A DNA stretch of 64,000 bases from Phycisphaerales bacterium (GCA_029245245.1 JAQWPT010000038.1:33052-97051); one strand, 5' to 3'. Counted from the first letter of the stretch, positions 44,558 to 61,110 are shown. Numbers and translations are program-made. The notes: a model not told the origin generated them from the sequence alone.

Positions 44558-44735
44558 GCCACCTCGATCACAGGCACACATGCCCCGGCCAGCACACGAT
44601 CGACTCGCATCCGATATGCGTCGTTCACCCTTGGCGAAAACTCCAAGAATCTACTTGGACCCTGTTTTGATTTCACTATGATCGGTGTCGGCCTGCTCAG
44701 CCACGGTGCTGAGCGGACTGGCCGGGGAGAGTTGT

Positions 44736-44790
44736 GGGGCATTGGTCTTCCCAGACCCATTGGGGAGCGGCGGGGTTTGCCTGCATCAAC
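44736..44790 (+). repeat. direct repeat copy A (about 55 nt) upstream of the GH64-like gene
   Basis: GGGGCATTGGTCTTCCCAGACCCATTGGGGAGCG...CCTGCATCAAC. The first 34 nt differ at one position from copy B at 46560. Contains a small hairpin GGTCT-TCCC-AGACC. Confidence 0.85.
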
Positions 44791-44890
44791 GCACAGTGCC
44801 ATGAACCGGTTCCGCCACATCGATGTGTCGGGACCCGAACAATGCCTGGCACCTCTGCATCCGCAGGGCCGGGGTGGGGAGAACGATTCG

Positions 44891-46549
44891 ATGAGAAAGA
44901 TCCACAGCAAAATGTATGGACGACACATCTGTGCACTCAGCGCACTCAGTGCACTGGGGTGCCTTGCGGCCTCAAGCATCGCATCTGCAGACATGACGTT
45001 TTACGTCGAGAACTCCACGACAAATATTCCCGACAAGGACATCTACATCTGGTTTGATACGACATGGGGCTGGCCAGGGAGCAGCCCTACTCCTGCTCAA
45101 CAGGGCATTCCGATCACGCAACTCACCCCCGTTTCACCCACTGATGATGGGATCGGCGGAACCTATTCGTTCACCTGCTCCAGCGCTTCGGGTTCCAGAC
45201 TCTACCTGTCAACCAACAAACCGATGATGGGGGGAATACCAAGCCAAAGTGATTTCGCACAGGGTTCACCAGACACATATACCCCTTTCACCATGCTCGA
45301 GTTCGATAGTTCGAACGGATGGAACGTTGACTTGTCGTATGTAGACAGTTACAGCTTTCCCATCAGTGCCCACATCCAACAAGGCCATGATGACATCAGC
45401 AGCCTTCCCTTTGTCGGCAGCGATGCTGATGTCGTAACGAGTCTCGAAGACGCCACGAGTTCTGCGCCAAGCGGCCAGTGGATCATCCGCAAGAACAAAC
45501 GATTCATACGATGCGTCAGTCCAAACGTATACTTCCCCGCCACGGGTCTGGCCCCCTACGACACCTGGACCAACCCCTGGCCGAAGTTCTATGACTACAT
45601 CCAGGCCCATAAGTCAGACATGAACACACCCGTAATGAAATGGGATGTCCAATGCGATGGGGTCTTCAGCGGCGAACTGCTCCTCTACGAGGATTCATCG
45701 GTTCCAGGAAACATGGTGCTAGAAGTCATGAATAACGGACAGTCGGTGAAGAAGATCTCGGATGACCACAACAGCGTGCTCCTTGATACGTTCCTGTATA
45801 CGGGGGGGCAAGGGGTTGATCTCTCGATCAAGCTTGCCAACATGGCTCTCGTGTACGGCTTCGTGGGCAGCACCGCAGATCTGGACTCGAAAGACCTCTC
45901 GTCTAACATAGGTTGCCCAAATTGGACGATCCCAGGATGTGCCTCTGATGACGTCAAATGGGCCAACTGCACGGCCGCTCCATATTCTCTAGACCTGTAC
46001 AACAAGGTCTCGCCCGGCAGCGGCAGCACGACCGTCAACAACCTTGTCTTGTCAGGGACAAACCCCCCCCTCGACGGCGATAAACTTCGGTGGATCATCG
46101 CGCAGGGTGCGGATCTGCAGCCTTCCAATACATACTACAGCACCTATTCCAACGCCATCATGGGAACCATTCAATCGGGTTGCTGCGACGCGGTCAATGA
46201 CACATGGGTCGGGTACAACGCGGGCTACACACACCAGAGCGCCGACGTCTGGAACAGCATGAAGGTCGACATGGTTTCCCAGTCCCCCCAACAATGTGGA
46301 CAGGGTACTGAACCCTCATCGTGCATTGACCGAATTCTGCTCAAGGTCATGCCCAACCAGACCTACACGGCAGGTCCTGCGGACATCAATGGCGATGAAA
46401 TTGTCAATGTCCTGGATCTTCTGGAGGTCCTCGATGACTGGGGGGCATCTCTCGAGGGTGATCAGTACCTGTCTGATGTAAATACTGATCTTGCCGTGGA
46501 TGTCACGGACCTCATGGCGGTGATCGATGACTGGGGACGCCAGTCATAA
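44891..46549 (+). CDS. secreted GH64 / thaumatin-like (beta-1,3-glucanase-like) protein with C-terminal dockerin-like module
   Basis: ORF 44678..46549 trimmed to ATG 44891 (signal MRKIHSKMYGRHICALSALSALGCLAASSIASA). The patterns TFYVENST..DIYIWF, SGSRLYLS and FTMLEFDSSNGWNVDLSYVDSYSFPIS resemble GH64-TLP superfamily blocks (from memory, not searched). GC is about 45-55%, clearly below the flanks. Confidence 0.55.
   Translation: MRKIHSKMYGRHICALSALSALGCLAASSIASADMTFYVENSTTNIPDKDIYIWFDTTWGWPGSSPTPAQQGIPITQLTPVSPTDDGIGGTYSFTCSSASGSRLYLSTNKPMMGGIPSQSDFAQGSPDTYTPFTMLEFDSSNGWNVDLSYVDSYSFPISAHIQQGHDDISSLPFVGSDADVVTSLEDATSSAPSGQWIIRKNKRFIRCVSPNVYFPATGLAPYDTWTNPWPKFYDYIQAHKSDMNTPVMKWDVQCDGVFSGELLLYEDSSVPGNMVLEVMNNGQSVKKISDDHNSVLLDTFLYTGGQGVDLSIKLANMALVYGFVGSTADLDSKDLSSNIGCPNWTIPGCASDDVKWANCTAAPYSLDLYNKVSPGSGSTTVNNLVLSGTNPPLDGDKLRWIIAQGADLQPSNTYYSTYSNAIMGTIQSGCCDAVNDTWVGYNAGYTHQSADVWNSMKVDMVSQSPQQCGQGTEPSSCIDRILLKVMPNQTYTAGPADINGDEIVNVLDLLEVLDDWGASLEGDQYLSDVNTDLAVDVTDLMAVIDDWGRQS
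46382..46537 (+). other. dockerin-like two-segment Ca-binding module (C-terminal)
   Basis: DINGDEIVNVLDLLEVLDDWG ... DVNTDLAVDVTDLMAVIDDWG. Confidence 0.65.
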
Positions 46550-49668: not shown

Positions 49669-49929
49669 GTCTTTGAAATCTGCAACAGGCGAGATGCCTG
49701 CTCCCACAAGAACGCAAGAGGGTACGGGCCGTCCCTGCTGCTGTCGAGAACAGTGGAACATGGTGTCCGGGAATCCTCGAATATCCACCCCGTCGTGGTC
49801 AAAAACATGCAAACCGGGCGAAGAAAGAGGCTTCCAACTCCATAGAGGGGGATATCTTGAAGTATTGACCTCGTACAGATGGACGCAGCTCCTGCTGCTT
49901 CTTCATCCCCCTTCCCCCGGAGTACGTAC

Positions 49930-50991
49930 ATGATTCAGCGCCTCGCCACCCTGCTTGTGATCGTCGGCCTGGGATCGATTGCCACTGCCGATTCGATGAC
50001 TCGCCTTGGCTGCGACAGCGACTGCAATCTCGACGGACAGGTGAACGTCGATGACCTGCTGAACATCATCTCCAACTGGGGCCAGGCCGGCTGCAACACC
50101 AGCCAGATCGGCGTCGATGATCTGCTCTTGGTCATCAGCGAATGGAACAGGCCCTGCCACCCCTTCATGATTGATCACCCGCTGGGCATCGAGGTCGACT
50201 TCCAGGCCGAACCCGGCTTTGCGATCATTCGCGCCACCGGCCTCGCCGAGCACACCATGGGACCCTTCGACGGTTCCACCGGCTGCTTCAACCCCAACTC
50301 CCCCGGAAACCAGAACGACGAATGGCGAATCCCGATCATTCCCACGGCGACGAACGACCCTGCCGTGTCCGTACTGGACACGCTCGGCCCCACCGCCCTG
50401 TACTACAACGGCGTCGCCCTCTACAACCCGTACGACGGCGGCTCGATGGAGGCGCCCGGCAACATCTGCATGGACGACTACAACGGGCACCCCTCGCCCG
50501 ATCTCCGCTACCACTACCACCAGTATTCACCGGTCGACGGTGACAACGGGGCAACCCACTCCCCCATCGTCGGCTACGGTTTTGACGGCTACCCGATCTA
50601 TGGCCCTTGGGAATCCAACGGCGTCCTGGCCGCCCAGTCCGGCAATCCACTGGATGAATGCAGCGGTCACCATGACGATCTGCGTGGATACCACTACCAC
50701 AGCGTCAGTTACGACCTGGGTGTCCAGTACGGGCTGCCCGGCGACGGATTTCCCTGGGCCCTTGGCTGCTACCGCGGTGAACCCGAGCCCTCCAACTTCG
50801 CCGGTGACGGCGGTGGCGGCGGTGGTGGCGGATGCAACGGATGTGCCAGCGTCATGGCCCCTCCCCCGGTCTGCAACTGCCTCGAAAACATACCTGCCTA
50901 CGCACCATGCTGCCTCGACTGGACCACCGGGGCGAACGGAACTCCCGATTGCTACGCTGGTGCTGCAACGTACTGCGGCTGGAGTCCCTGA
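49930..50991 (+). CDS. secreted YHYH-domain protein with N-terminal dockerin-like module and Gly/Cys-rich tail
   Basis: Trimmed to ATG 49930 (signal MIQRLATLLVIVGLGSIATA). Two YHYH motifs (LRYHYHQY, RGYHYHSV) in a PF14240-like arrangement. C-terminal GGGGGGGGCNGC...CNC...CC. Confidence 0.75.
   Translation: MIQRLATLLVIVGLGSIATADSMTRLGCDSDCNLDGQVNVDDLLNIISNWGQAGCNTSQIGVDDLLLVISEWNRPCHPFMIDHPLGIEVDFQAEPGFAIIRATGLAEHTMGPFDGSTGCFNPNSPGNQNDEWRIPIIPTATNDPAVSVLDTLGPTALYYNGVALYNPYDGGSMEAPGNICMDDYNGHPSPDLRYHYHQYSPVDGDNGATHSPIVGYGFDGYPIYGPWESNGVLAAQSGNPLDECSGHHDDLRGYHYHSVSYDLGVQYGLPGDGFPWALGCYRGEPEPSNFAGDGGGGGGGGCNGCASVMAPPPVCNCLENIPAYAPCCLDWTTGANGTPDCYAGAATYCGWSP
50011..50157 (+). other. dockerin-like two-segment module (N-terminal)
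   Basis: CDSDCNLDGQVNVDDLLNIISNWGQAGC ... IGVDDLLLVISEWNRPC. Confidence 0.6.
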
Positions 50992-51009: not shown

Positions 51010-51594
51010 ATGATGCGAACACCGGTGATCACATTGATGTGTGTGTGGCTTGCAGCCCTGGCCCTTGCCGGATGTACAGCACCACCCGCTTCCCTTTCAG
51101 ACCACGACGGCCTTGTCCATACCCCGTTGGACGGGGATGAGGGCGACCTCGTGGTCGTCGTCTTCTCCAGCACCGACTGCCCCATCGCCAACGCAATGGC
51201 ACCGGACATCGAACGGGCCAGCCGCGAGACCACCGAGGCCGGCGGCCGCTTCTACCTGGTCCATGCACGCCCGGAACTCACGGCTGAACGCACCCGAACT
51301 CATGCCAGGGAGTACGAACTGACCATGCCGGTCATCGTGGACCGAAACCATGACCTCGTCCGTACCCTCGACGCCACAATCACCCCGGAGGCCTACCTGC
51401 TGCGAATGCGGGGAAACGGCCGGTACGACATCCTGTACCACGGAAGCGTGAACAATCTCTACGGATCAGTCGGCAACCGCCGCCAGAACATCTCCGAGCA
51501 CTACCTGCGGGATGCGGTTCGCAGCGCAGCGGCGGGCAAGGAGATCGAAGTGAGCCAGCGAACCCCCTTCGGATGCTACATCGAGCGGAACTGA
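51010..51594 (+). CDS. thioredoxin-fold redoxin lipoprotein (1-Cys variant)
   Basis: Lipobox LAALALAGC. Redoxin/TlpA-like core DLVVVVFSSTDCPIANAM.. with CPIA in place of CxxC. C-terminal ..RTPFGCYIE. Confidence 0.65.
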   Translation: MMRTPVITLMCVWLAALALAGCTAPPASLSDHDGLVHTPLDGDEGDLVVVVFSSTDCPIANAMAPDIERASRETTEAGGRFYLVHARPELTAERTRTHAREYELTMPVIVDRNHDLVRTLDATITPEAYLLRMRGNGRYDILYHGSVNNLYGSVGNRRQNISEHYLRDAVRSAAAGKEIEVSQRTPFGCYIERN

Positions 51595-51598
51595 ATCC

Positions 51599-52921
51599 AT
51601 GCACGCGATCCTCTTCTGCCTGCTTGCCTCCACGACCAATGCCGCGGACACCTGGTCCGATGTCTCCCCGATCGTCAGTCGACACTGCTCGACCTGCCAC
51701 CACGATGCCGGCTCCGGCCCATTCCCCCTGCTCTCGCACTCGGACCTCGCCGGTCGCCGCCGCTTCATTGCCGAAATCCTGCGCCGCAAGCTCATGCCAC
51801 CGTGGCTTCCCGGTGGCGACAGCCCCCCGCTGCACGATGATCGAACCATGCCCAAGACGGACCGCACCCGGTTGATCGCCTGGCTCGATGCCGGTGCCCC
51901 CACCGCAGAGGGCACCGAGCCGGTGGCGATCACGCCTCCGATCACTCCTTCGTTTCCTGCAGGGACGTTCACCGTGCCCCTGGATGAACCGTTCGTGATC
52001 CCACCGGAGACGATCGAGAACGAACACCGCTTCCACCAGGACACATGGTGCTTCGTGATACCCCTGGACAACGAGGACCCACTTCGAGTTCGAGGAATCG
52101 GGTGGAAGACGGCCGCACCCCAATCCGTCCACACGGTGACCCTGGTTGCCGACGACCGGGGACGCGGACGCAAGCGTGACGAGGTCGACCCGCGGGTCGG
52201 CTTCGAACGCGATGGCGATCTCGACCGGGACATCTCTGGATCGCTCGGTGGCGTGGGCATCGGCCTGGATCGCATGCTGCTACCCCCGGGGTTCCACTGG
52301 TCCATCCCCGCCCACAGTGATCTCGTGGCCGAGGTGAAGTACCGACCACTGGGACGAGCTCTCCCGCTTGGTGACCAGGCCTACCTGGTTCCCGCCGATG
52401 ACGTTGCCTCCCGCGAAGTCATCGCGGTGGTCACCGGCGTCAACCGGCTCAAGGTCCCCGCCGGCGAGAAGGAACACGAAGCCGAAGATCGATTCACGCT
52501 CCCGGCCGCCTTTGATGTCATCGCCGTCATCCCCCGAGCCCGCAATGAATGTCGCTCGATGCGACTGTCGGCGAACCTCCCCGACGGCACCCAGCGGACC
52601 CTGCTGGACATTCCCGACTGGGACGCCCACTTCCGCCGCCCCTACCTGTTCAAGTCGATCCAATCACTCCCCGCCGGCACGATCCTCGTCAGTCGATTCA
52701 TCATCGACAACACCGATGGCAATCCGAGGAATCCATACGATCCCCCGGAGGATCTCCGCATTGGGCGTCGCACCGGAGTTGCCGGGTTCACCCTGCTGGG
52801 CGCCGGTTCGGACGCGGCCGCCTCGAATCTGCTGCTGAAAACCAGCCAACGGGTCATGGATCGCCGGGGATCGCAGACCAGGCCCTCACGCACCCCTATT
52901 CCATCGCCTAAGGCACCCTAG
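51599..52921 (+). CDS. heme-c (CxxCH) protein with Cu-monooxygenase-like beta-sandwich region
   Basis: Signal peptide, then IVSRHCSTCHHDAGSGPFPLLS...RRKLMPPWLP...LIAWLDAGAP. This is the block that precedes DBH-like/ascorbate-type monooxygenase domains in redoxin-fused bacterial proteins. Recognition is from memory. Confidence 0.55.
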   Translation: MHAILFCLLASTTNAADTWSDVSPIVSRHCSTCHHDAGSGPFPLLSHSDLAGRRRFIAEILRRKLMPPWLPGGDSPPLHDDRTMPKTDRTRLIAWLDAGAPTAEGTEPVAITPPITPSFPAGTFTVPLDEPFVIPPETIENEHRFHQDTWCFVIPLDNEDPLRVRGIGWKTAAPQSVHTVTLVADDRGRGRKRDEVDPRVGFERDGDLDRDISGSLGGVGIGLDRMLLPPGFHWSIPAHSDLVAEVKYRPLGRALPLGDQAYLVPADDVASREVIAVVTGVNRLKVPAGEKEHEAEDRFTLPAAFDVIAVIPRARNECRSMRLSANLPDGTQRTLLDIPDWDAHFRRPYLFKSIQSLPAGTILVSRFIIDNTDGNPRNPYDPPEDLRIGRRTGVAGFTLLGAGSDAAASNLLLKTSQRVMDRRGSQTRPSRTPIPSPKAP

Positions 52922-53064
52922 GCCTCGAATCGGGCCTGAAAGTGGATTGGAGCCAGAAAACATGGCTCCTTCGGCCGCTTTCATCCTTGATGTCCCCCTC
53001 CTGATGCCACAGAATGGAAGCAGCGCACCGCTGCCCGAACTGGGCCACTCGAGGAGAGAAGACG

Positions 53065-55083
53065 ATGCCCCATGCTTCCGCACGGCCTGTTGGCCTGCTT
53101 GGACTCCTGCGTCCGATGCAGTTCCTGATGATTCTCGTTGCATGCTGCCTGGTCAGCCCGATGGTCATGGCCCAGGGAGACCCGTGCGATACCGATCCGT
53201 GTTACGACGAGTCGTGCCCCGGGTACGATCCCTGCGAATGCGGAACGGGAGATCCCTGCGAATGCGGCTGGGGCGACCCCTGTGAATGCGGCGATGCGGA
53301 CCCGTGCGACTGTGGCTGGGGCGATCCCTGTGAATGCGGTTGGGGTGACCCCTGCGAATGCGACCCCGACCCCTGCGATCCCGCCTGTGGTGGCGATCCC
53401 TGTGACCCGGCATGTGGTGGTGATCCGTGCGATCCCGCCTGTGGTGGCGATCCCTGCAGCCTCGAGTGCAACCCGGATCCCTGCAGCGATCCCAGCAGCG
53501 AGTGCTACGACGAGTGCGAATGCACCTACTGCCTGTACCCGGACTGCCCGGACTACGACGAGTGCGAATGCTTCGGCGGTCCGCTGAGTTGCAATCCACT
53601 CTGTGACGAGTACGACCCCTACTGCAGTGGCGAGTGCCCCGAATACGACCCCTGCCAGTGTCCCGGCGCCGACCCCTGTGACTGCGGAATGGGTGATCCC
53701 TGCGAGTGCGATATTGATCCCTGCGATCCGGCCTGCGGTGGCAACCCGGAGTGCGACCCCGACTGCGGCGGCGACCCCTGCAGCGTCGGCTGCGGTGGCG
53801 ACCCCTGTGATGCCGGCAGTGAATGCTACGACCCCTGCGACACGAGTTGCCCCGACTACGACATCTGCAACTGCGACCCGCCCCTCTGCGTCCCCCCGTA
53901 CAACGACGATTGCGACCAGCCCGAGGCGATCTATGACGGCCTCACCCTCTTCGATACCACCTACGCCACCGCCGGCGTGCCCTTCAATGACTTCACCGCG
54001 TGTACGAACCTCGGCAACGGGATCGTGCACAAGGACATCTGGTACACGCACGAGGCAACCTGCACCGGCACCCTGGTGCTTACCACCTGCACCGGGACCT
54101 ACTGGGATACCCGGATCGCCGTCTACGACGGCCTATGCCCCACTGGCACCATGCTCACCTGCAACGACGATGGCGACGGCTGCAATGACTACACCTCCTA
54201 CCTTGAAATGGATGTCACGGCCAACACGGTCTACATCATTCGACTCGGTGGATTCGGTTACAACGACGCGGGTGTGGGGCGTCTCTGGGTTGAGTGCACT
54301 CCAGCTCCCAGCTCTTGCGAGGATCCACTGCCGGATTGTCCCACGGACATCGACGGCAATGGGTCCACGGATATCCTCGACCTGCTGGCCGTGCTCAACG
54401 ACTGGGGCCAGTCCGGTCCGCCACGACCCGCCGGCGACTGCTCACCCGGCGAATTCGGCGACTGTGTCGTCGACATCTTCGACCTGCTCGCGATCATCAA
54501 CGCCTGGGGTCCCTGCCCCGTTCCATGCAACGATCCGTGCTATGCCGAGTGCGACAACTACGACCCCTGCGACGAGTCATGCGGCGGCGAGTGCAACCCG
54601 GACTGCCCGGACTACGACGAGTGCTACTGCGTCGGTGATCCGTGCAACCCGGACTGCCCGGACTACGACGAGTGCGCCTGCATCGGTGGCAGCGATCCCT
54701 GTGACCCGGCATGTGGCGGTGATCCGTGCGATCCCGCCTGTGGCGGCGAGCCCTGTGACCCGGCATGCGGCGGTGACCCCTGTGATCCCGCCTGTGGTGG
54801 CGATCCCTGCAGCCTCGAGTGCAACCCGGATCCCTGCAGCGATCCCAGCAGCGAGTGCTACGACGAGTGCGAATGCACCTACTGCCTGTACCCGGACTGC
54901 CCGGACTACGACGAGTGCGACTGCTTCGGCGGTCCGCCGAGTTGCAATCCACTCTGTGACGAGTACGACCCCTACTGCAGTGGCGAGTGCCCCGAATACG
55001 ACCCCTGCCAGTGTGCCGGCGCCGACCCCTGTGACTGCGGAATCGGTGATCCCTGCGAGTGCTGGGGCGAAGGCTGCCCCTGA
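53065..55083 (+). CDS. secreted Cys/Asp/Pro micro-repeat protein with central beta-sandwich (PPC-like) domain and internal dockerin-like module
   Basis: ATG 53065 is preceded by GAGGAGAG. Signal ...LMILVACCLVSPMVMAQ. By hand count, about 110 Cys in 672 aa. Repeats are G-x-GDPCEC, DPCDPACGG and CPDYDEC. The other two frames and the antisense strand are also open, but only this frame has a signal peptide and globular domains. Confidence 0.75.
   Translation: MPHASARPVGLLGLLRPMQFLMILVACCLVSPMVMAQGDPCDTDPCYDESCPGYDPCECGTGDPCECGWGDPCECGDADPCDCGWGDPCECGWGDPCECDPDPCDPACGGDPCDPACGGDPCDPACGGDPCSLECNPDPCSDPSSECYDECECTYCLYPDCPDYDECECFGGPLSCNPLCDEYDPYCSGECPEYDPCQCPGADPCDCGMGDPCECDIDPCDPACGGNPECDPDCGGDPCSVGCGGDPCDAGSECYDPCDTSCPDYDICNCDPPLCVPPYNDDCDQPEAIYDGLTLFDTTYATAGVPFNDFTACTNLGNGIVHKDIWYTHEATCTGTLVLTTCTGTYWDTRIAVYDGLCPTGTMLTCNDDGDGCNDYTSYLEMDVTANTVYIIRLGGFGYNDAGVGRLWVECTPAPSSCEDPLPDCPTDIDGNGSTDILDLLAVLNDWGQSGPPRPAGDCSPGEFGDCVVDIFDLLAIINAWGPCPVPCNDPCYAECDNYDPCDESCGGECNPDCPDYDECYCVGDPCNPDCPDYDECACIGGSDPCDPACGGDPCDPACGGEPCDPACGGDPCDPACGGDPCSLECNPDPCSDPSSECYDECECTYCLYPDCPDYDECDCFGGPPSCNPLCDEYDPYCSGECPEYDPCQCAGADPCDCGIGDPCECWGEGCP
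53242..53361 (+). repeat. 5 x 24-nt coding tandem repeat (G-x-G-D-P-C-E/D-C)
   Basis: Read from the sequence and translation: GTGDPCEC GWGDPCEC GDADPCDC GWGDPCEC GWGDPCEC. Confidence 0.85.
53368..53448 (+). repeat. 3 x 27-nt coding tandem repeat (DPCDPACGG)
   Basis: Direct reading; synonymous differences between units. Confidence 0.85.
53438..53709 (+). repeat. copy 1 of a 272-nt intragenic duplication
   Basis: Matches 54791..55062 with 4 mismatches by eye. Offset is 1353 nt, which is in frame (451 codons). Confidence 0.85.
54337..54516 (+). other. dockerin-like two-segment module (internal)
   Basis: CPTDIDGNGSTDILDLLAVLNDWGQSG ... GDCVVDIFDLLAIINAWGPC. Confidence 0.65.
54694..54801 (+). 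repeat. 4 x 27-nt coding tandem repeat (D/EPCDPACGG)
   Basis: Direct reading. One more unit than the N-terminal array. Confidence 0.85.
54791..55062 (+). repeat. copy 2 of the 272-nt intragenic duplication
   Basis: See copy 1. The differences give E->D, L->P, P->A and M->I. Confidence 0.85.
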
Positions 55084-55089
55084 TCCGAC

Positions 55090-55509
55090 TCAGTCGGTGT
55101 TGCGCATGAAGTTCGCCACGTGCGCGAAGCGTGCATCGAGAAACACCCGTATGTCACCGTCGATGCCCTGCTGATCCATTGCCTCGGCCATGCAGGCCAG
55201 CCACTGGTCCCGCATCGTTTCATCGATCGGGAATGATGCGTGTCGCATGCGCAGCCGCGGGTGCCCGTGCTTCTGTACGTAGAGTTGGGGGCCCCCCAGC
55301 CAACCCGAGAGAAACTCGAAGAAGGTCTCCTGCATGGGCTCCAGGTCCGGGGCGTGCAGTGCACGCAGACCCGCGTAGTCCTGGTTCTCATCCATACAGC
55401 CATAGAAGGCCCTGGCCAGGGCGTGCACCCGCTCCGACCCTCCCAGAGCATCGTAGGGCGTATGCTCGGAGTCGTATGCGGGTGGCGCAGCCTGCGGCAT
55501 GTCGGTCAT
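55090..55509 (-). CDS. glbO: group II truncated hemoglobin (trHbO)
   Basis: ...YDALGG..RAFY...FLSGWLGGPQLYVQKHGHPRLRMRHASFPI...DQWLACM... is collinear with M. tuberculosis GlbO. Confidence 0.85.
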   Translation of the reverse strand: MTDMPQAAPPAYDSEHTPYDALGGSERVHALARAFYGCMDENQDYAGLRALHAPDLEPMQETFFEFLSGWLGGPQLYVQKHGHPRLRMRHASFPIDETMRDQWLACMAEAMDQQGIDGDIRVFLDARFAHVANFMRNTD

Positions 55510-55662
55510 GGGTCAATACTCACATTCTGATTGAAACGAAGTGTATCGCAGCAGGAGAAGGCTCGTTCCAAGCAGGTTTCGATTGACCGGACCACGATTG
55601 CTTCCAAGGTTGGAGAATCAAGGACGACGACAGTTTATTCTGCCGACTCAGGAGACCAAACC

Positions 55663-57099
55663 ATGCAACGACGCACTCTCTTCTCCATCGTGGCCGTCAG
55701 TGGCCTGTTACTGGCTCCCGGCACCATGCTCGCCAGCGAACCATGTGATGCCGACATCAACAACGATCAACAGGTCGATATCGGCGACCTCCTGGGCGTG
55801 CTTGGCGACTGGGGGCCATGCCCCGAACCGCCGGCCTCCTGCCCGGCCGACATCGACGGGACCGGATCCGTGAACGTCAGCGACATGCTCACGGTGCTCT
55901 CGGGCTGGGGCCCGTGCCCGGAGACGGATGAAGACCAGCGAATCGTCGCCTACTACATCGAATGGGGCATCTACGGCCGCGACTACCAGCCGATGGACAT
56001 CCCTGCCGACAAGATCACGCACATCAACTACGCATTCGCCAACATCAGTGAAGATGGCCGGATTGCCCTCGGCGATCCCTACGCCGCCATCGACAAATAC
56101 TACGAAGGCGACACGTGGGACCAGCCCTACCGCGGCACCTACAACCAGATCAACAACGTGCTTCGAGGTCAGTATCCGCACATCAAGACCCTGATCTCCG
56201 TCGGTGGCTGGACCTGGTCCGGCAGATTCTCCGACATCGCGCTTACGAACGAATCGCGGGCGATCTTTGCCGAATCATGTGTGGACTTCATTCGCCAGTA
56301 CAACTTCGATGGCGTCGACATTGACTGGGAATACCCCGTCTGCTGTGGGCTCTCTTCGAACACATACCGTCCGGAAGATCGAGAGAATTACACGCTGCTG
56401 CTCCAGGAACTGCGTACCCAACTCGACGCTGCCGCGACCGAGGATGATCGGGAGTACCTGCTCACCATCGCTGCGCCTGCGGGTTACGACAAGATCGAGA
56501 ACCTCGAACCCGACGGCATCGCGGAGTCCTGCGACTGGATCAACGTGATGACGTACGACCTTCACGGAGCATGGGACCTGAGTCTCACCAATCACCACAG
56601 CAAGCTGTACCCGAACCCAAATGATCCTGGGGACGAGGACATTGCGACGCTCTACAACGCCGCTGCATCCATCCAGAACTACCTCGATGCAGGCGTCCCC
56701 CCGAATGAACTGGTTCTCGGTGTCCCCTTCTACGGACGTGCCTGGGGCGGCGTCGGACCCGACCAGGGCGGGCTCTTCCAGTCCGGCAGTCTCATACCTC
56801 CGGGCACCTGGGACGACTGGAGCAGCGGCGCGACCGGAATCAACGACTGGTTCCAGATCGAACAGTTCATCGAAAGCGGCCTCTACACCCGGTACTGGGA
56901 TGACGACTCGAAGGTCCCATGGCTCTACAGCCCCACCGAGCATGGTGGACACTTCATCTCCTACGACGACGAGGAATCGTTGCAGCACAAGGTCGACTTC
57001 ATCCGCGAACAAGGCCTCGGTGGCGCCATGTTCTGGGAGATCACTGGCGATCGAAACGAAACCCTGCTCGATGTGCTGCAGCCGTTGACGAGACCCTGA
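55663..57099 (+). CDS. GH18 chitinase with N-terminal dockerin-like module
   Basis: Trimmed to ATG 55663 (RBS AGGAGA; signal MQRRTLFSIVAVSGLLLAPGTMLA). Catalytic motif FDGVDIDWEYP, SVGGWTWS, and the ..MTYDLHG.. and ..GGAMFWE blocks. Confidence 0.85.
   Translation: MQRRTLFSIVAVSGLLLAPGTMLASEPCDADINNDQQVDIGDLLGVLGDWGPCPEPPASCPADIDGTGSVNVSDMLTVLSGWGPCPETDEDQRIVAYYIEWGIYGRDYQPMDIPADKITHINYAFANISEDGRIALGDPYAAIDKYYEGDTWDQPYRGTYNQINNVLRGQYPHIKTLISVGGWTWSGRFSDIALTNESRAIFAESCVDFIRQYNFDGVDIDWEYPVCCGLSSNTYRPEDRENYTLLLQELRTQLDAAATEDDREYLLTIAAPAGYDKIENLEPDGIAESCDWINVMTYDLHGAWDLSLTNHHSKLYPNPNDPGDEDIATLYNAAASIQNYLDAGVPPNELVLGVPFYGRAWGGVGPDQGGLFQSGSLIPPGTWDDWSSGATGINDWFQIEQFIESGLYTRYWDDDSKVPWLYSPTEHGGHFISYDDEESLQHKVDFIREQGLGGAMFWEITGDRNETLLDVLQPLTRP
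55744..55917 (+). other. dockerin-like two-segment module (N-terminal)
   Basis: CDADINNDQQVDIGDLLGVLGDWGPCP ... CPADIDGTGSVNVSDMLTVLSGWGPC. Confidence 0.65.
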
Positions 57100-58488: not shown

Positions 58489-60945
58489 TCAGGATCCCTT
58501 CTTTTCGCCCCCGGACCAATCCTTCCCGAGGCCGGGAACCATCGCCACCTGCTGGTCCGTCAACTGCAGCTCCAGCAGGATCCGGGTCTGATCATTGAGT
58601 TGGCGACGCCGGTACCGCAACTGCTCCATCTTCATGTATTGCTTCATCGACTCGCTGCTGGGAGGCCATGAACGCTCCGCATCCTGGCGGCCCTTGGCTC
58701 CATCGAGGATCTGCACGGTGAGGTCCCGGTACTGGCTGCGGTACTCAAGAGCGAGATCGTTGATCAGTTCCCGCTGGTCTGCAGAGAGACCCTCCAGTGC
58801 AAGCGTGCCATCGATCTGTTCATCAGCGATCCACGGGTCCTTGAACACGTCGGGATAGGCCTTCCGCTCGTACATGTCCTGAACGAGCATGATGCGGTCT
58901 TCGGGAATTTCCTGAAGGATGCCCTCGTAGGTCATTCGATTCGTCTTGGCCATGCGAGCCGCGATTTCACTCATCTCGGATCTGCCGTTTTCCCATCGCT
59001 CGTAGAGGCGTTTTCTCAGGTCTTCATCGATGTCGCCTTCGCCCTCTCCCCAGAGGCGATCCTCGAGACTCTTGACACGGTCGTAACTGGTCTCAATCGC
59101 ATCGATGTCGGTCATCGATGCGGCGTTGTATTCGATGAGCACGTCGATCATGAACTGGCGGGACTCTTCATCAAGTGTTTCCGGATCGATGGCCAGTACG
59201 ATTTCACCGATGTCGATCGTCCCCTCCGTGGATCCACGAAGTGACCAGTTCCCGTTCCAGATCTTCTGGCGACGGCGGGCACGGTCATGCGACACGCGGA
59301 TCTGGTCCAGCAGGTCGGGCTGGGTATCGGGCGGAAGCACCATGGACATGTCCGCAAAGAAGGCATCTTCGGCCTCCTTCAACTTCGGCAGCATCTCCGC
59401 CTGCAGAGCCCTGCGAACCTTCCTCCGCTCACGCCACCCCTGGTCGGTTTCCAGAGCGGAGTACCCGTCGGTCAGACGCTGGTCGTACTCAACCGACAGC
59501 GATTCGTAACTCGTGGTGTACTGGTCGTAGAGTGATTCCAGGACACTCGCGTCCATGTCCTGCAGGCCAAGCCAGGCCGAGAACTGTTCGACACTCACCG
59601 GCTCCATGGGAGCCATGGGCAAGTTGTAGGTTCGACCGGTGGAGGCATCCGGCTTGTCGGATCCTGATCGACCACGGGCCCACCGTACCTCCCGCGTGTC
59701 CTCTTTCTTCTCACCGTCCATCAGTTCCATCTGCTCGTCGGTGAGGATGCTTGCAAGGCTCGTTTCGCCGCTGGCGACAAGATCTTCCATTCGCCCATCG
59801 AGTCGCTCCAGTCGCTCGTCATGCTCACCCGGAACATCACCTTCCAACTGCTCAGCCGTCCGATAGGCCCACGAATCCTGGAATGCTTCGGCCACCTGGG
59901 GAAACAGGGCCAGCCAGCGACTTCGATAGTCGGCCTGGGCCGACTCCAGGAGGAGCACCTGGTCCTCGGTCACGCCATCGAGTTTCATGGCCCGGCTGAA
60001 GCGACGATCCGCTCGCTGCACACCACCATTCTCGTACGACGTATCTGCGTACTCGAAGGTCAACTGCACCCAGTTCTCTTCACCGAGAACCTCCCTGATC
60101 TGCATCGCGGTCTGGAGATTCAATCGCCCCATCTTGTCGACGGTCTTCTGGATGGGCTTGCTGTTCTCATTGAAGAAGGCGATGAGCCGATCCTGCATTC
60201 CTCCCTCGGTCCACAACTCCATCATCTGCTGCATGTCCATGTCGCGGAGACCGAGTTCATCCACGAGATCGAGAACCTGATCGACGATCTTGAGCAAGTC
60301 GTCCTGGAACTGGACCACCAGGTAGAGCATCCTCGTTTCGAACGAGTCGGTCACCTGGCGGATCGCAGCCAACTGGTCCGGAGACAGATCGGTTCGATCG
60401 ATCCATTCCAGGATGTTGAACTGGATGCCCTCATTGAACCGGCTGGCCAGCATGAAGTGCGGCATGATGTAATTCGAAAGTTTGCGCCGCCTGCGAGCCC
60501 GCTCAAGGGCCGGCAGCTGCTCTTCGATGACCAGCATGTTGATGCTGTCGAAGTAGGCCGAGTCGATCCGGTTGAACTTGTCATAGATATCGAGGGCCAT
60601 CTTCAGCAGGTCCTCGATGTCCTTGCGGGGAGGAATGGTGATCGAGCCGCCCATCCAACTGCCCATCAACTGGCCCATGGCGAGACCGTCATCGATGAGT
60701 TCGCCGACTTCACGCTCCTGCAACTGCTCGTACTCCGCCTGGTAGCGGGTGTAGAGCGACATCATCTGGGCCTGCTGCTCCCTGGACAGTTCCAACTCAA
60801 CGGCAAGATCCCTGAGGTCATCGATGCTGACCGGCTGGATCAGGAACGGGAACCGCTGGGCCTGTGCAGTTGAAACCATGCCCGGCATGAACCAGGCAGC
60901 GAGGGTGATGAGCAGGACCAGGAATGGAGGAGTTCGGTGCAGCAT
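58489..60945 (-). CDS. secreted all-helical protein built from repeated LTxxQ-type (Spy/CpxP-like) modules
   Basis: ORF 58489..61110 trimmed to ATG 60945 (signal MLHRTPPFLVLLITLAAWFMPGMVSTAQA). Six L/V-[ST]-x-[DE]-Q motifs (LSREQ, LSPDQ, VTEDQ, LTDEQ, LSADQ, LTDQQ), each followed by Tyr-rich helices (..YTRYQAEYEQL, ..LEYRSQYRDL). Confidence 0.6.
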   Translation of the reverse strand: MLHRTPPFLVLLITLAAWFMPGMVSTAQAQRFPFLIQPVSIDDLRDLAVELELSREQQAQMMSLYTRYQAEYEQLQEREVGELIDDGLAMGQLMGSWMGGSITIPPRKDIEDLLKMALDIYDKFNRIDSAYFDSINMLVIEEQLPALERARRRRKLSNYIMPHFMLASRFNEGIQFNILEWIDRTDLSPDQLAAIRQVTDSFETRMLYLVVQFQDDLLKIVDQVLDLVDELGLRDMDMQQMMELWTEGGMQDRLIAFFNENSKPIQKTVDKMGRLNLQTAMQIREVLGEENWVQLTFEYADTSYENGGVQRADRRFSRAMKLDGVTEDQVLLLESAQADYRSRWLALFPQVAEAFQDSWAYRTAEQLEGDVPGEHDERLERLDGRMEDLVASGETSLASILTDEQMELMDGEKKEDTREVRWARGRSGSDKPDASTGRTYNLPMAPMEPVSVEQFSAWLGLQDMDASVLESLYDQYTTSYESLSVEYDQRLTDGYSALETDQGWRERRKVRRALQAEMLPKLKEAEDAFFADMSMVLPPDTQPDLLDQIRVSHDRARRRQKIWNGNWSLRGSTEGTIDIGEIVLAIDPETLDEESRQFMIDVLIEYNAASMTDIDAIETSYDRVKSLEDRLWGEGEGDIDEDLRKRLYERWENGRSEMSEIAARMAKTNRMTYEGILQEIPEDRIMLVQDMYERKAYPDVFKDPWIADEQIDGTLALEGLSADQRELINDLALEYRSQYRDLTVQILDGAKGRQDAERSWPPSSESMKQYMKMEQLRYRRRQLNDQTRILLELQLTDQQVAMVPGLGKDWSGGEKKGS

Positions 60946-61110
60946 CCGGGTGGCTTTCTGGAGAAGAGGGAGGAGAAATGGAAAGACCATTCTAGCGGTT
61001 GGACCCCCGGATTCCTCTCTGGTTCCAGAAATGGGCCACCATTGAACAGGAAACGGGGCCCCGTTTCCGGGGCCCCGTCGTTCGTCGATTCCTGGATTGA
61101 TACCACTCAC

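What the first reader, a model, noticed from the sequence alone, without database searches (positions are those of the whole stretch)
53065..55083. Secreted protein that is about one-sixth cysteine: two arms of GDPCEC / DPCDPACGG / CPDYDEC micro-repeats around a globular core
The translation has a clear signal peptide. It is followed by roughly 230 aa and, at the C-terminus, roughly 190 aa made almost entirely of C, D, P, G and E in short periodic units (GxGDPCEC x5, DPCDPACGG x3 and x4, NPDCPDYDEC, many CxC pairs). By hand count there are about 110 Cys in 672 residues. The arms flank an ordinary-looking beta-sandwich domain (DDCDQPEAIYDG...CNDDGDGC...RLGGFGYNDAGVGRLWVEC) and a dockerin-like module. 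I do not recognise the arms as any named family. The CxC/CxxC density resembles metallothionein, but this protein is exported and strongly acidic. It could be an extracellular metal (Cu/Zn/Cd/Fe) or Ca sponge, a disulfide-laddered stalk, or a scaffold for the neighbouring dockerin-tagged enzymes. This is the most unusual coding sequence in the window.
Basis: partly seen in the sequence, partly recalled or inferred. Interest (0 to 1): 0.75.

Follow-up and report, generated by a model that had tools for sequence, protein, structure and literature searches.

The report
Secreted cysteine-rich acidic repeat protein
A marine planctomycete (Phycisphaerales) gene encodes an exported protein that is one-sixth cysteine and one-fifth acidic, in which two repeat "arms" matching no known protein family or solved structure flank an ordinary binding domain and a dockerin-like anchor; the arms are probably disulfide-stapled, cation-coated surface rods, but this has not been tested.

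Summary
ORF 53065..55083 (+) encodes 672 aa with 111 Cys (16.5%), 143 Asp+Glu and 7 Lys+Arg. The other 37 genes called in the window have 0-4.3% Cys. The frame is real: it has a signal peptide, a PPC-like beta-sandwich, a dockerin-like module, syntenic orthologues in about four other marine Phycisphaerales assemblies, and dN/dS of 0.09-0.21 in the arms. The arms combine octapeptides (GxGDPCEC), nonapeptides (DPCDPACGG), CPDYDEC units and a 69-aa, 18-Cys module. That module occurs once per arm and is kept 99% identical by concerted evolution. The arms match nothing in Pfam, NCBIfam, PDB sequences or, as a predicted fold, PDB structures. A profile search of 1.84 billion representative proteins gave 13 hits, about eight of them real. 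Every relative pairs the arms with a dockerin-like module, and one relative lacks the beta-sandwich, so I read the arms as the displayed cargo. My best reading (about 0.45) is disulfide-stapled, strongly anionic, Ca/Mg-coated non-globular rods on the cell surface, with a structural or adhesive role. A scaffoldin role is unsupported because no cohesin was found. A metal-thiolate sponge is unlikely but not excluded. I class it as a new repeat family of a known general kind. Function is untested.

The parts
53065..53172 (+). Start codon and Sec-type signal peptide (aa 1-36, MPHASARPVGLLGLLRPMQFLMILVACCLVSPMVMA|QGDPC).
   Evidence: GGAGAG lies 8 nt upstream of the ATG at 53065. The peptide has a basic n-region, a hydrophobic h-region and a VMA|Q cleavage motif read directly from the sequence. 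The same A-x-A|xGDPC junction is present in the orthologues. No signal-peptide predictor was available.
53173..53904 (+). N arm (aa 37-280): 54 Cys, 63 Asp+Glu, no Lys/Arg/His.
   Evidence: Composition. No Pfam/NCBIfam hit at E<=1. dN/dS 0.12-0.15. AF2 gives pLDDT 80 and pTM 0.30 with almost no secondary structure. Foldseek against PDB gives 0 matches.
53218..53361 (+). Octapeptide array 1: six units of xGxDPC[ED]C (Cys spacing 1,5,1,5...).
   Evidence: TRF finds period 24/48 nt at 53226-53362. Units listed.
53362..53448 (+). Nonapeptide array 1: three units of DPCDPACGG (Cys spacing 3,4).
   Evidence: Identical peptides are encoded by different DNA units.
53449..53655 (+). Module M, copy 1 (69 aa, 18 Cys: DPCSLECNPDPCSDPSSECYDECECTYCLYPDCPDYDECECFGGPLSCNPLCDEYDPYCSGECPEYDPC).
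   Evidence: Conserved in the orthologues and in P0002/P0121. 99% nt identity to copy 2.
53662..53709 (+). Octapeptide array 2 (two units).
53710..53904 (+). Nonapeptide-like array 2 plus the conserved pre-core Cys module (…CYDPCDTSCPDYDICNCDPPLC).
   Evidence: Aligned across the orthologues and P0021/P0023.
53905..54324 (+). Beta-sandwich core (aa 281-420), a PPC / galactose-binding-like domain.
   Evidence: Pfam PF23759 GBD_T9SS_assoc at E 9.7e-5, 23.1 bits, below the gathering score of 27. About 115 homologues carry PF23759. AF2 pLDDT is above 90 with eight strands. Foldseek: PPC domain 5sv5 TMt 0.73, ColG collagen-binding domain 1nqj TMt 0.71.
54325..54516 (+). Dockerin-like module (aa 421-484). 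It has two 'DxxDLLxxxxxWG' segments. The first has a canonical Ca loop (DIDGNGSTDILD). The second has GDCxxxxxGDC in its place.
   Evidence: Pfam Dockerin_1 at 24.1 bits, above the gathering score of 22.9, when scanned alone. Internal direct repeat 54370-54407 / 54472-54509. Two predicted helices at aa 437-445 and 471-479. The only EF-hand-like loop is at aa 428.
54517..55080 (+). C arm (aa 485-672): 42 Cys, 48 Asp+Glu, no Lys/Arg/His.
   Evidence: No family hit. dN/dS 0.09-0.21.
54592..54693 (+). Two 17-aa units of CNPDCPDYDECxCxG(x).
   Evidence: TRF finds period 51 nt with 93% matches..
54694..54801 (+). Nonapeptide array 3: four units of [DE]PCDPACGG, with a 54-nt two-unit DNA super-period.
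   Evidence: TRF: period 54 nt at 88% matches against period 27 nt at 75%. Units listed.
54802..55008 (+). Module M, copy 2.
   Evidence: 97% aa and 99% nt identity to copy 1.
55015..55083 (+). Octapeptide array 3 (two units), the C-terminal ending CECWGEGCP, and the stop codon.
   Evidence: The same CECWG(D/EG)C(P) ending occurs in L003, L051, L057 and P0122-P0124.
53368..53667 (+). Left copy of the 300-nt direct repeat shared by the two arms.
   Evidence: 96% identity to 54721-55020. Of the 12 differences, 10 are at codon position 3.
54721..55020 (+). Right copy of the 300-nt direct repeat.

Best explanation
SHOWN: 53065..55083 is a real, vertically inherited chromosomal gene of a marine Phycisphaerales (Planctomycetota) lineage. 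It encodes a Sec-exported protein of about 67 kDa (calculated pI about 4) with the order: signal peptide, N arm, PPC-like beta-sandwich, dockerin-like module, C arm. The arms are built from 8-aa, 9-aa and 17-aa micro-repeats around a 69-aa, 18-Cys module. They are about 22% Cys and 26% Asp+Glu, and have no basic residues. They are under purifying selection at the peptide level, and the two arms are homogenised with each other by gene conversion. Unit copy number varies between relatives. INFERRED (about 0.45): after export, the paired cysteines (two per unit, separated by 1/5 or 3/4 residues) are oxidised into a dense series of short-range disulfides. These staple a Pro/Gly-rich chain with no hydrophobic core into stiff, non-globular rods. 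In seawater, the carboxylate-only surface (about -50 to -60 net charge per arm) would be coated with Ca2+/Mg2+. The arms are the functional cargo. In this lineage the core+dockerin cassette otherwise tags secreted proteases and glycosidases, and every arm-bearing relative has a dockerin-like module. The protein would therefore be docked or bound at the cell surface through the dockerin-like module and the PPC-like domain. There the arms would act as a structural, spacer or adhesive polyanionic element that binds cations, and would not act as a catalyst or a scaffold.
For: Real gene and frame: GC3 is 0.77, like its neighbours. A signal peptide and Shine-Dalgarno sequence are present. Domain hits are in this frame. 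The gene order YHYH / AhpC-like / 440-aa / this gene / globin(-) / [GH18] / 3keto(-) ... is conserved in L001, L002+L005, L003 and L004. NG86 dN/dS is 0.12-0.15 for the N arm and 0.09-0.21 for the C arm, as low as or lower than the core at 0.19-0.31.
Peptide-level constraint inside the arrays: seven identical DPCDPACGG peptides are encoded by seven different DNA units with a mean of 84% nt identity. Of the 32 invariant columns in the 8-sequence arm alignment, 22 are Cys.
Cysteine pairing: every micro-repeat carries two Cys. All six arms of the three orthologues compared have even Cys counts (54/42, 48/66, 56/44) despite different unit numbers. The 37-aa indel between L047 and L048 removes 8 Cys.
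Non-globular character: AF2 predicts almost no secondary structure, pTM 0.30, and local pLDDT of 70-89 in the best model.
Polyanion: the window's arms have no K/R/H and estimated charges of about -64 and -48.
Arms as cargo: the core+dockerin cassette sits at the C-terminus of M12, matrixin and S8 enzymes in relatives. L054 has arms plus a dockerin-like module but no beta-sandwich. P0002, P0121, P0021 and P0023 have an arm plus a dockerin-like module.
Analogy from the literature: barnacle CP20 is a Cys-rich cement protein with proposed intramolecular disulfides that adsorbs to calcite (PMC9597634). Diatom frustulins are described as carrying acidic cysteine-rich domains (PMC4712521).
Against: No redox state, metal content, localisation or partner has been measured. 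The disulfides, the Ca/Mg coating and the surface display are all inference.
The AF2 model is based on 8 sequences. Four of its five models have pLDDT of 57-66, and the coordinates could not be inspected for Cys-Cys geometry.
The arms have no canonical Ca-binding loop. The only D-x-[DN]-x-[DN]-G-x-x-D loop is in the dockerin-like module.
Total mature Cys is odd in all seven core-bearing family members counted, so at least one Cys is unpaired or forms an intermolecular bond.
No cohesin-type receptor for the dockerin-like module was found. Its second half is non-canonical.
Dsb-type oxidases were not looked for, because the rest of the genome was not available.
Confidence: 0.45

Rival explanations
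1. Mineral or biogenic-surface adhesin. The acidic, disulfide-locked arms specifically adsorb to cationic or Ca-bearing surfaces such as calcite/coccoliths, Ca-bridged algal polysaccharide or particles. This would parallel barnacle CP20 on calcite or frustulins in diatom walls, and would help a particle-attached heterotroph hold on to its substrate.
For: The combination of acidic residues and high Cys matches the composition of CP20 and the frustulin ACR domains. The relatives come from marine assemblies. The neighbours and the cassette-sharing relatives are secreted polymer-degrading enzymes, including GH18, a GH64-like protein and M12 peptidases. A PPC/CBM-like binding domain lies between the arms.
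Against: There is no sequence relationship to CP20 or to frustulins, and the frustulin motifs are absent. No binding data exist. CP20 also relies on His and basic residues, which the arms lack (CP20 composition from my own knowledge).
Confidence: 0.15
2. Intermolecularly cross-linked envelope or matrix protein. The arms form disulfide bridges between molecules, or to other envelope proteins, and build a covalent cystine/proline-rich surface layer. This would echo the classical description of cystine- and proline-rich planctomycete envelopes (from my own knowledge).
For: Mature Cys count is odd in all seven core-bearing family members counted (109, 127, 113, 139, 113, 109, 105). The composition is very rich in Cys and Pro. 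Copy-number variation is typical of surface proteins.
Against: The YTV-domain family of planctomycete wall proteins did not match. Two arm-bearing relatives have even Cys counts (P0021, P0121). The family is restricted to a small clade and is very rare, which is odd for a core wall component. The gene is single-copy in the loci seen.
Confidence: 0.12
3. Exported metallothionein-like sponge. The thiolates, together with the carboxylates, bind Cu(I), Zn, Cd or Fe outside the cytoplasm for detoxification or acquisition.
For: The protein has 19 CxC pairs and 16.5% Cys. The best single Foldseek hit of the full model is a surface Cu-binding protein, CorA, but only at TMt 0.35 and through the core. 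A weak relative, P0131, has ECECGEGH repeats with His.
Against: No metallothionein model matched at E<=1. The protein is exported into an oxidising compartment. The arms have 12 Tyr each, 3 and 1 Trp, and no His. The Cys count is even per unit and per arm. No copper or zinc resistance or uptake genes were recognised nearby.
Confidence: 0.12
4. Scaffoldin. The arms are docking sites that assemble the neighbouring dockerin-tagged enzymes into a 'planctosome'-like complex.
For: Five proteins in the window carry dockerin-like modules. A cohesin/dockerin 'planctosome' has been hypothesised for Phycisphaerae (PMC6461901).
Against: No cohesin match was found in this protein or in the window proteins scanned. 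The protein itself bears the dockerin-like module. The arms are non-globular micro-repeats, whereas a cohesin is a beta-sandwich of about 140 aa. GH18 is absent from this locus in L003 while the Cys-rich gene is kept.
Confidence: 0.04
5. Artefact. The feature is a mis-assembled or non-coding GC-rich repeat, or another frame or strand is the real product.
For: Long shadow ORFs exist in two other frames: 53603..55174 on the + strand and 52981..54051 on the - strand. The 300-nt repeat at 96% identity is a hazard for assemblers. The UBA854 copy is split over two contigs with runs of N. L047 and L048 differ by a 37-aa block.
Against: dN/dS is far below 1 in this frame, with synonymous sites near saturation. 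The signal peptide and two recognisable domains are in this frame. The same architecture occurs in at least five independent assemblies. Unit copy numbers may still be wrong by a few units.
Confidence: 0.02

Closest known systems
Thrombospondin type 3 repeats (the Ca2+ 'wire' of TSP/COMP; my own knowledge of the TSP-1/TSP-2 C-terminal fragment structures)
   Same: Both are extracellular, Asp-rich tandem short repeats with paired cysteines, almost no secondary structure and no hydrophobic core. TSP3 repeats are held together by disulfides and bound cations. I think this is the closest known way of working.
   Different: There is no PF02412 match at E<=1. The arms lack the DxDxDGxxDxxD calcium loops. 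Their units are 8-9 aa with two Cys each, against roughly 23-36 aa in TSP3. Ca binding is not shown here.
Barnacle cement protein CP20 (PMC9597634)
   Same: Both are secreted marine proteins of similar Cys content built from Cys-based repeats rich in charged residues. For CP20, intramolecular disulfides are proposed to be essential and adsorption to calcite is reported.
   Different: CP20 is animal, small (about 20 kDa) and also rich in His and basic residues (my own knowledge). There is no sequence similarity. The arms here are purely acidic.
Diatom frustulins, acidic cysteine-rich (ACR) domains (PMC4712521)
   Same: Both are exported proteins carrying acidic cysteine-rich repeat domains. From my own knowledge, frustulins are Ca-binding cell-wall proteins.
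   Different: The ACR hexapeptide motifs CQGDCD and VPGCSG are absent. Frustulins are eukaryotic. No homology was detected.
Phycisphaerae secreted enzymes carrying the PF23759-like beta-sandwich plus dockerin-like cassette (e.g. P0004 and P0060 M12 peptidases, P0043 matrixin; the 'planctosome' hypothesis, PMC6461901)
   Same: The central 205 aa (core plus dockerin-like module) are homologous at 33-45% identity. These proteins come from the same phylum and are also exported.
   Different: In those proteins the cassette tags a catalytic domain. Here it is flanked by Cys-rich arms with no catalytic domain.
Metallothioneins
   Same: Similar Cys fraction and many CxC pairs.
   Different: This protein is exported, has 672 aa, carries aromatic residues and about 26% acidic residues in the arms, and matches no MT profile.
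P0127, a Bacteroidota-type T9SS-sorted protein with N-terminal CPxYDPC repeats
   Same: It shares the CP[DSN]YD[PE]C / DPCNPDC unit type (profile E 1.3e-13). Its repeats likewise sit on a secreted surface protein (Por_Secre_tail).
   Different: It has no octapeptide or nonapeptide arrays, no module M and no dockerin-like module, and it carries a large unrelated C-terminal region.

Membership tests
Metallothionein | Match to a metallothionein profile (Pfam MT families) | tested here: not met
   No MT family at E<=1 for the whole protein or for either arm.
Metallothionein | Small, non-exported protein essentially lacking aromatic residues | tested here: not met
   The protein has 672 aa and a signal peptide. 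The arms contain 12 Tyr each and 3 and 1 Trp.
Metallothionein | High Cys content in CxC/CxxC clusters | tested here: met
   16.5% Cys and 19 CxC pairs, but only 2 CxxC.
Metallothionein | Metal-thiolate clusters with reduced cysteines | not testable with these tools
   Needs ICP-MS and thiol titration.
Thrombospondin type 3 repeat (PF02412) | Profile match | tested here: not met
   No hit at E<=1.
Thrombospondin type 3 repeat (PF02412) | DxDxDGxxDxxD-type calcium loops in each repeat | tested here: not met
   The only such loop is at aa 428, inside the dockerin-like module. There are none in the arms.
Dockerin type I (PF00404) | Profile match above the gathering score | tested here: met
   24.1 bits against a gathering score of 22.9 when aa 423-482 are scanned alone. 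Within the whole protein the score is 15.6 bits, and only profile positions 2-27 of 57 are matched.
Dockerin type I (PF00404) | Duplicated segment of about 22 residues, each with a Ca-binding loop and a helix | tested here: inconclusive
   Two segments are present (DNA repeat D9; motif hits at aa 439 and 473; helices 437-445 and 471-479). Only the first has a canonical loop. The second has GDCxxxxxGDC in its place.
Dockerin type I (PF00404) | Binds a cohesin partner | not testable with these tools
   No cohesin was found in the window. The rest of the genome was not available.
Cellulosomal scaffoldin | One or more cohesin domains (PF00963) | tested here: not met
   No cohesin hit at E<=1. The arms are predicted to be non-globular.
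PPC / GBD_T9SS_assoc beta-sandwich (PF04151 / PF23759) | Profile match above the gathering score | tested here: inconclusive
   PF23759 at 23.1 bits, below the gathering score of 27, E 9.7e-5. Most homologues of the core carry a precomputed PF23759 hit.
PPC / GBD_T9SS_assoc beta-sandwich (PF04151 / PF23759) | Jelly-roll beta-sandwich fold like the pre-peptidase C-terminal / collagen-binding domain | tested here: met
   AF2 pLDDT is above 90 for aa 281-420. Foldseek gives TMt 0.73 for 5sv5 and 0.71 for 1nqj, although the E-values are only about 3e-3.
Frustulin ACR domain | Hexapeptide motifs CQGDCD and VPGCSG (PMC4712521) | tested here: not met
   The regex search finds none.
Planctomycete YTV wall-protein domain (PF07639) | Profile match / YTV motif | tested here: not met
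   No Pfam hit and no YTV tripeptide.
Myxococcus cysteine-rich repeat (TIGR02232 / PF13948) | Profile match | tested here: not met
   No hit in Pfam or NCBIfam at E<=1.
Prion copper-binding octarepeat (PF03991) | Profile match above the gathering score of 32 bits, with His in each octapeptide | tested here: not met
   No hit in the window protein. Relatives score 13-22 bits, below the threshold. The arms contain no His. The resemblance is a period-8 GWG coincidence.

The most novel reading that the evidence does not exclude
The arms are a new kind of exported thiolate/carboxylate metal-binding polymer: an extracellular, cell-surface-docked 'metallothionein' that sequesters Cu, Zn, Cd or Fe in seawater. 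If so, this would be a genetically defined protein source of strong metal-binding ligands made by marine heterotrophic bacteria. A milder reading is independent of the metal question: the 8- and 9-residue disulfide-stapled units form a repeat fold that is absent from the PDB (I put that at about 0.5).
Probability: 0.12. Interest if true: 0.85.

Novelty: new variant of a known kind. Interest (0 to 1): 0.55.

Why it matters
If the arms are disulfide-stapled polyanionic rods, they would be a bacterial counterpart, evolved independently, of eukaryotic extracellular Cys/Asp repeat materials such as thrombospondin type 3 repeats, frustulin ACR domains and barnacle CP20. They would also add a non-enzymatic cargo to the dockerin-tagged secretome of marine Phycisphaerae, whose surface biology is almost unstudied because the lineage is known only from metagenome-assembled genomes. 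The repeat units have no structural precedent among sequences or folds in the PDB. A solved structure would probably define a new small-repeat architecture that could be useful as a rigid, highly charged building block for protein design. If the arms bind transition metals instead, the protein would bear on the origin of strong metal ligands in seawater. Practically, the gene shows how a 300-nt internal repeat and micro-repeat arrays break or collapse in MAG assemblies.

Tried and rejected
- **Pfam and NCBIfam** on the whole protein and on each arm separately found nothing for the arms at E<=1.
- **phmmer of the protein and hmmsearch of the arm profile against PDB sequences** found nothing relevant. 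The only hit was a galactanase at E 0.19 to the core. The arm profile gave 0 hits at E<=10.
- **Foldseek of the AF2 arm model against PDB** gave 0 matches at E<=10. The model coordinates are not exposed, so I could not read Cys-Cys distances or check disulfide geometry.
- **Arm-only search of the word-indexed protein database** returned 7 proteins and left out obvious relatives. A local phmmer run shows they do match, so that list undercounts.
- **Prion-octarepeat resemblance** was rejected: it is below threshold and the arms have no His.
- **An LNR/Notch-like reading of the C-terminal 'CNGNCxPxxWxxDGYCDDG' modules of P0001/P0002** found no Pfam support at E<=0.1. The window protein lacks these modules in any case.
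- **Lipoprotein reading of 'LVAC' in the signal peptide** was rejected. L003 lacks a lipobox, and all orthologues keep an AxA-type site just before GDPC.
- **Neighbour genes as functional clues.** The AhpC/TSA-like lipoprotein is only weakly ResA-like and has a single-Cys CPIA motif. The 440-aa CxxCH protein matches no family. Neither gives usable evidence.
- **Promoter and terminator scan** was uninformative.
- **Literature.** Full-text searches for the motifs, for Phycisphaerae cysteine-rich proteins and for planctomycete cystine/proline wall proteins found nothing on this family. A search for thrombospondin type 3 structure papers was unproductive.
- **Cys parity of the whole protein as a universal rule** was rejected: 9 of 11 family members counted are odd and 2 are even.


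Full report
**1. The observation**

The ORF at 53014/53065..55083 (+) exists as described. I take the ATG at 53065 as the start because GGAGAG lies 8 nt upstream of it. From there the product is 672 aa, with 111 Cys (16.5%), 103 Asp, 91 Pro, 77 Gly, 40 Glu and only 7 Lys+Arg.

There are 6 exact GDPCEC, 7 exact DPCDPACGG (3 in the N arm, 4 in the C arm), 4 CPDYDEC and 19 CxC.

The other 37 genes I called in the window have 0-4.3% Cys, so this gene is a genuine outlier. At the DNA level the arms are tandem arrays of period 24, 27/54 and 51 nt. A 300-nt direct repeat at 96% identity (53368-53667 vs 54721-55020) links the two arms.

**2. Is it a real gene in this frame?**

Yes. The evidence is as follows.

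- GC3 is 0.77, like its neighbours.
- The N-terminus reads as a Sec signal peptide ending VMA|QGDPC.
- The middle of the protein hits PF23759 (weakly) and Dockerin_1 in this frame.
- Full-length orthologues exist:
  - an ENA marine contig (P0001/L001, 62% identity);
  - Phycisphaerae MAG SP202 (L003, 55%);
  - Phycisphaerales UBA854, where the gene is split over two contigs (L002+L005);
  - several Tara-type metagenome contigs (L047-L052).
- The gene order is conserved: YHYH / AhpC-TSA-like lipoprotein / 440-aa CxxCH protein / this gene / truncated globin (-) / GH18 / 3-keto-disaccharide hydrolase (-) / 873-aa / B12-binding / 600-aa. GH18 is missing at this place in L003.
- Nei-Gojobori dN/dS in this frame is 0.12-0.15 (N arm), 0.09-0.21 (C arm), 0.19-0.31 (core) and 0.10-0.28 (dockerin-like module). 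Synonymous sites are near saturation.
- Within the arrays, seven identical DPCDPACGG peptides are encoded by seven different DNA units with a mean of 84% nt identity.

The long ORFs in the other frame and on the opposite strand are therefore shadow ORFs of a GC-rich repeat.

**3. Anatomy** (coordinates checked)

| Part | aa | nt | Notes |
|---|---|---|---|
| Signal peptide | 1-36 | 53065-53172 | |
| N arm | 37-280 | 53173-53904 | 54 Cys, no K/R/H |
| Beta-sandwich core | 281-420 | 53905-54324 | |
| Dockerin-like module | 421-484 | 54325-54516 | |
| C arm | 485-672 | 54517-55080 | 42 Cys, no K/R/H |

The N arm reads, in order:
- six octapeptides of xGxDPC[ED]C;
- three nonapeptides of DPCDPACGG;
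- module M (69 aa, 18 Cys, aromatic-containing, with CPDYDEC, FGGP and CNPLC landmarks);
- two more octapeptides;
- a nonapeptide-like stretch;
- a conserved pre-core module.

The C arm reads, in order:
- an irregular Cys stretch;
- two 17-aa CNPDCPDYDECxCxG units;
- four nonapeptides;
- module M again;
- two octapeptides;
- the ending CECWGEGCP. That ending recurs in L003, L051, L057 and P0122-P0124.

Estimated net charge is about -64 for the N arm and -48 for the C arm, and the calculated pI is about 4.

**4. How the arms evolve**

The two module M copies are 99% identical in DNA within the window and 87% identical within L003. Between orthologues they are only 70-80% identical. The two arms of one gene are therefore homogenised by gene conversion or recurrent duplication.

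Unit numbers differ between orthologues. My motif patterns count 8 octapeptides and 11 nonapeptides in the window, against 2 and 23 in P0001. L047 and L048 are identical at every aligned residue but differ by a 37-aa block of four nonapeptide units. That is either real copy-number polymorphism or an assembly collapse.

Cys positions dominate the invariant columns of the arm alignment: 22 of 32. All six arms of the three orthologues compared have even Cys counts.

**5. What the arms are not**

- No Pfam or NCBIfam family matches either arm at E<=1. That covers the metallothionein, TSP_3, YTV, myxococcal Cys-repeat and cohesin models.
- No PDB sequence matches the protein's arms or the arm profile, even at E<=10.
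- AF2 on an 8-sequence arm alignment gives a non-globular chain. The best model has pLDDT 80 and the other four have 57-66. pTM is 0.30. Secondary structure is almost absent, apart from a 3-residue helical turn in each nonapeptide.
- Foldseek finds no PDB match for that model, even at E<=10.
- A full HMMER profile search of 1.84 billion representative proteins, standing for about 15 billion, returns only 13 hits at E<=1e-3. About eight look real. The rest are unrelated simple repeats.
- A scan of 241 million metagenome records adds 11 loci. A scan of 185,579 species genomes gives arm-bearing hits only in Phycisphaerales/Phycisphaerae MAGs (L002-L005).
- No paper in the held library contains the motifs.

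**6. The middle of the protein**

AF2 with a 39-sequence alignment predicts aa 281-420 as an eight-stranded beta-sandwich at pLDDT above 90, followed by two dockerin-type helices.

The nearest solved folds are the pre-peptidase C-terminal domain (5sv5, TMt 0.73) and the ColG collagen-binding domain (1nqj, TMt 0.71). CUB domains, the C-terminal domain of Clostridium perfringens enterotoxin, and CBM6/35 also appear. E-values are only about 1e-3.

The same core+dockerin-like cassette, at 33-45% identity, ends many Phycisphaerae/Planctomycetota secreted enzymes, including M12 reprolysin-like, matrixin and S8 peptidases. In the window, dockerin-like modules also occur on a GH64-like protein, the YHYH protein, the GH18 chitinase-like protein and the 600-aa protein. 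No cohesin was found. A cohesin/dockerin 'planctosome' has been proposed for freshwater Phycisphaerae (PMC6461901).

**7. Inference on function**

Across the family the constant set is a signal peptide, arms and a dockerin-like module:

- L054 has arms and a dockerin-like module but no beta-sandwich.
- P0002, P0121 and L053 have an N arm, a different dockerin-like pair and other Cys-rich tails.
- P0021 and P0023 have an N arm, a dockerin-like module and an unrelated C-terminal domain.

The cassette elsewhere carries enzymes. I therefore read the arms as the cargo and not as linkers.

Several features point to one mechanism, which I hold at about 0.45. These are export, two Cys per unit at fixed short spacing, even Cys counts per arm, a Pro/Gly-rich chain with no hydrophobic core, a complete lack of basic residues, and stronger constraint than on the globular core. 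Together they fit chains stapled by dense local disulfides into stiff polyanionic rods that would be coated with Ca2+/Mg2+ in seawater. Such rods would be displayed at the cell surface for a structural, spacing or adhesive role.

The closest known way of working is the thrombospondin type 3 calcium 'wire' (my own knowledge). The closest known compositions are barnacle CP20 (PMC9597634) and the frustulin ACR domains (PMC4712521). The protein is not a member of any of these families.

**8. Rivals**

- **A specific mineral or biogenic-surface adhesin (0.15) and an intermolecularly cross-linked envelope protein (0.12)** are close variants of the best explanation. The second draws some support from the odd total Cys count in all seven core-bearing family members counted.
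- **An exported metal-thiolate sponge (0.12)** is disfavoured. The protein is exported to an oxidising compartment, the arms have aromatic residues and no His, no MT model matches, and no metal genes were recognised nearby. Nothing measured excludes it.
- **A scaffoldin (0.04)** is not supported.
- **An artefact (0.02)** is effectively excluded for the gene as a whole, though not for exact unit counts.

**9. Novelty and score**

The arms are an undescribed, very rare repeat family with no sequence or predicted-fold precedent. The general kind is known: extracellular Cys-rich acidic repeats on a modular, dockerin-tagged secreted protein. I therefore rate it 'new variant of a known kind' with interest 0.55. 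It is a striking composition with good evolutionary evidence of function, but no experimental handle yet. It bears on a larger open question only if the minority metal-binding reading is true.

Noticed in passing
window 44678-46549 (+), 49879-50991 (+), 55531-57099 (+), 62098-63900 (-): Four other window proteins carry planctomycete-type dockerin-like modules (D-x-x-DLL-x-V-x-x-WG-x-C). They are a weak GH64-like protein (C-terminal module), a YHYH protein (N-terminal pair), a GH18 chitinase-like protein (N-terminal pair) and a 600-aa protein with no domain hit above threshold (C-terminal pair). No cohesin was found in the window proteins scanned.
   Followed up: partly
window 51010-51594 (+) and 51599-52921 (+): Two genes lie directly upstream and are syntenic in all relatives. 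One is a lipoprotein with an AhpC/TSA-redoxin fold, weak ResA/StoA similarity and a single-Cys 'DCPIAN' motif where CxxC would be expected. The other is a tightly abutting 440-aa protein with an N-terminal CxxCH motif and no family match. A link to the redox handling of the Cys-rich protein is conceivable but unsupported.
   Followed up: partly
L047 2887-5445 vs L048 2-2146: Two metagenome contigs encode proteins with 0 mismatches over about 715 aligned residues. They differ by a 37-aa block of four nonapeptide units (8 Cys) in the C arm. This is either copy-number polymorphism or an assembly collapse.
   Followed up: partly
L002 7275-9163 and L005 1-1540 (Phycisphaerales UBA854): The orthologue is broken across two contigs exactly in the repeat arrays and contains long runs of N. 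This shows that the gene is hard to assemble or is masked in the collection.
   Followed up: yes
L054 645-2408: This family member has both arms and the dockerin-like module but no beta-sandwich core. Its N arm is dominated by the unit type 'NPDPCNPDCPDYDECxC' (19.4% Cys).
   Followed up: partly
P0001 / L005 / L047 C-termini; P0002, P0122-P0124: Relatives carry extra C-terminal Cys modules that are absent from the window protein. One is a 'GACCxFDxCxxLTxxxCxxLGGTFYGxGTxC' unit. The other is an LNR-like 'DCNGNCxPxxWxxDGYCDDGxYxxxGxPIxLxCxxYxCDGGDC' unit. Pfam gives no hit for either at E<=0.1.
   Followed up: partly
window 54694-54801 and 53362-53448: Adjacent nonapeptide units alternate synonymous codons (GAC CCG GCA / GAT CCC GCC). 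As a result the DNA period is 54 nt (88% matches) rather than 27 nt (75%). The arrays seem to grow by two-unit blocks, or to be selected against perfect DNA repeats.
   Followed up: partly
window 58489-61110 (-): This 873-aa protein has no cysteine at all, 18% Asp+Glu and no Pfam match. It is conserved in synteny in all relatives at 53-68% identity.
   Followed up: no
window 49879-50991 (+), C-terminal about 70 aa: The YHYH protein ends with a poly-Gly run followed by its own short Cys-rich tail (…GGGGGGGGCNGCASVMAPPPVCNCLENIPAYAPCCLDW…CYAGAATYCGWSP). The tail is unrelated in sequence to the arms.
   Followed up: no
P0127 (730 aa): This protein has a T9SS C-terminal sorting domain, so it is probably from Bacteroidota. 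It has about 260 aa of N-terminal CPxYDPC / DPCNPDC repeats related to the window's CPDYDEC units. At least this unit type therefore occurs outside Planctomycetota.
   Followed up: partly
window 52981-54051 (-) and 53603-55174 (+, other frame): Long shadow ORFs of 356 and 523 aa overlap the gene. They are products of the GC-rich repeats and could mislead gene callers.
   Followed up: yes
window protein aa 27-28 and whole mature chain: Total mature Cys is odd in all seven core-bearing family members counted: the window protein, P0001, L003, L047, L051 and L052 (which have 13 Cys in core+dockerin where this was counted) and the core-less L054. It is even in P0021 and P0121. This may point to one unpaired Cys or an intermolecular bond.
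   Followed up: partly
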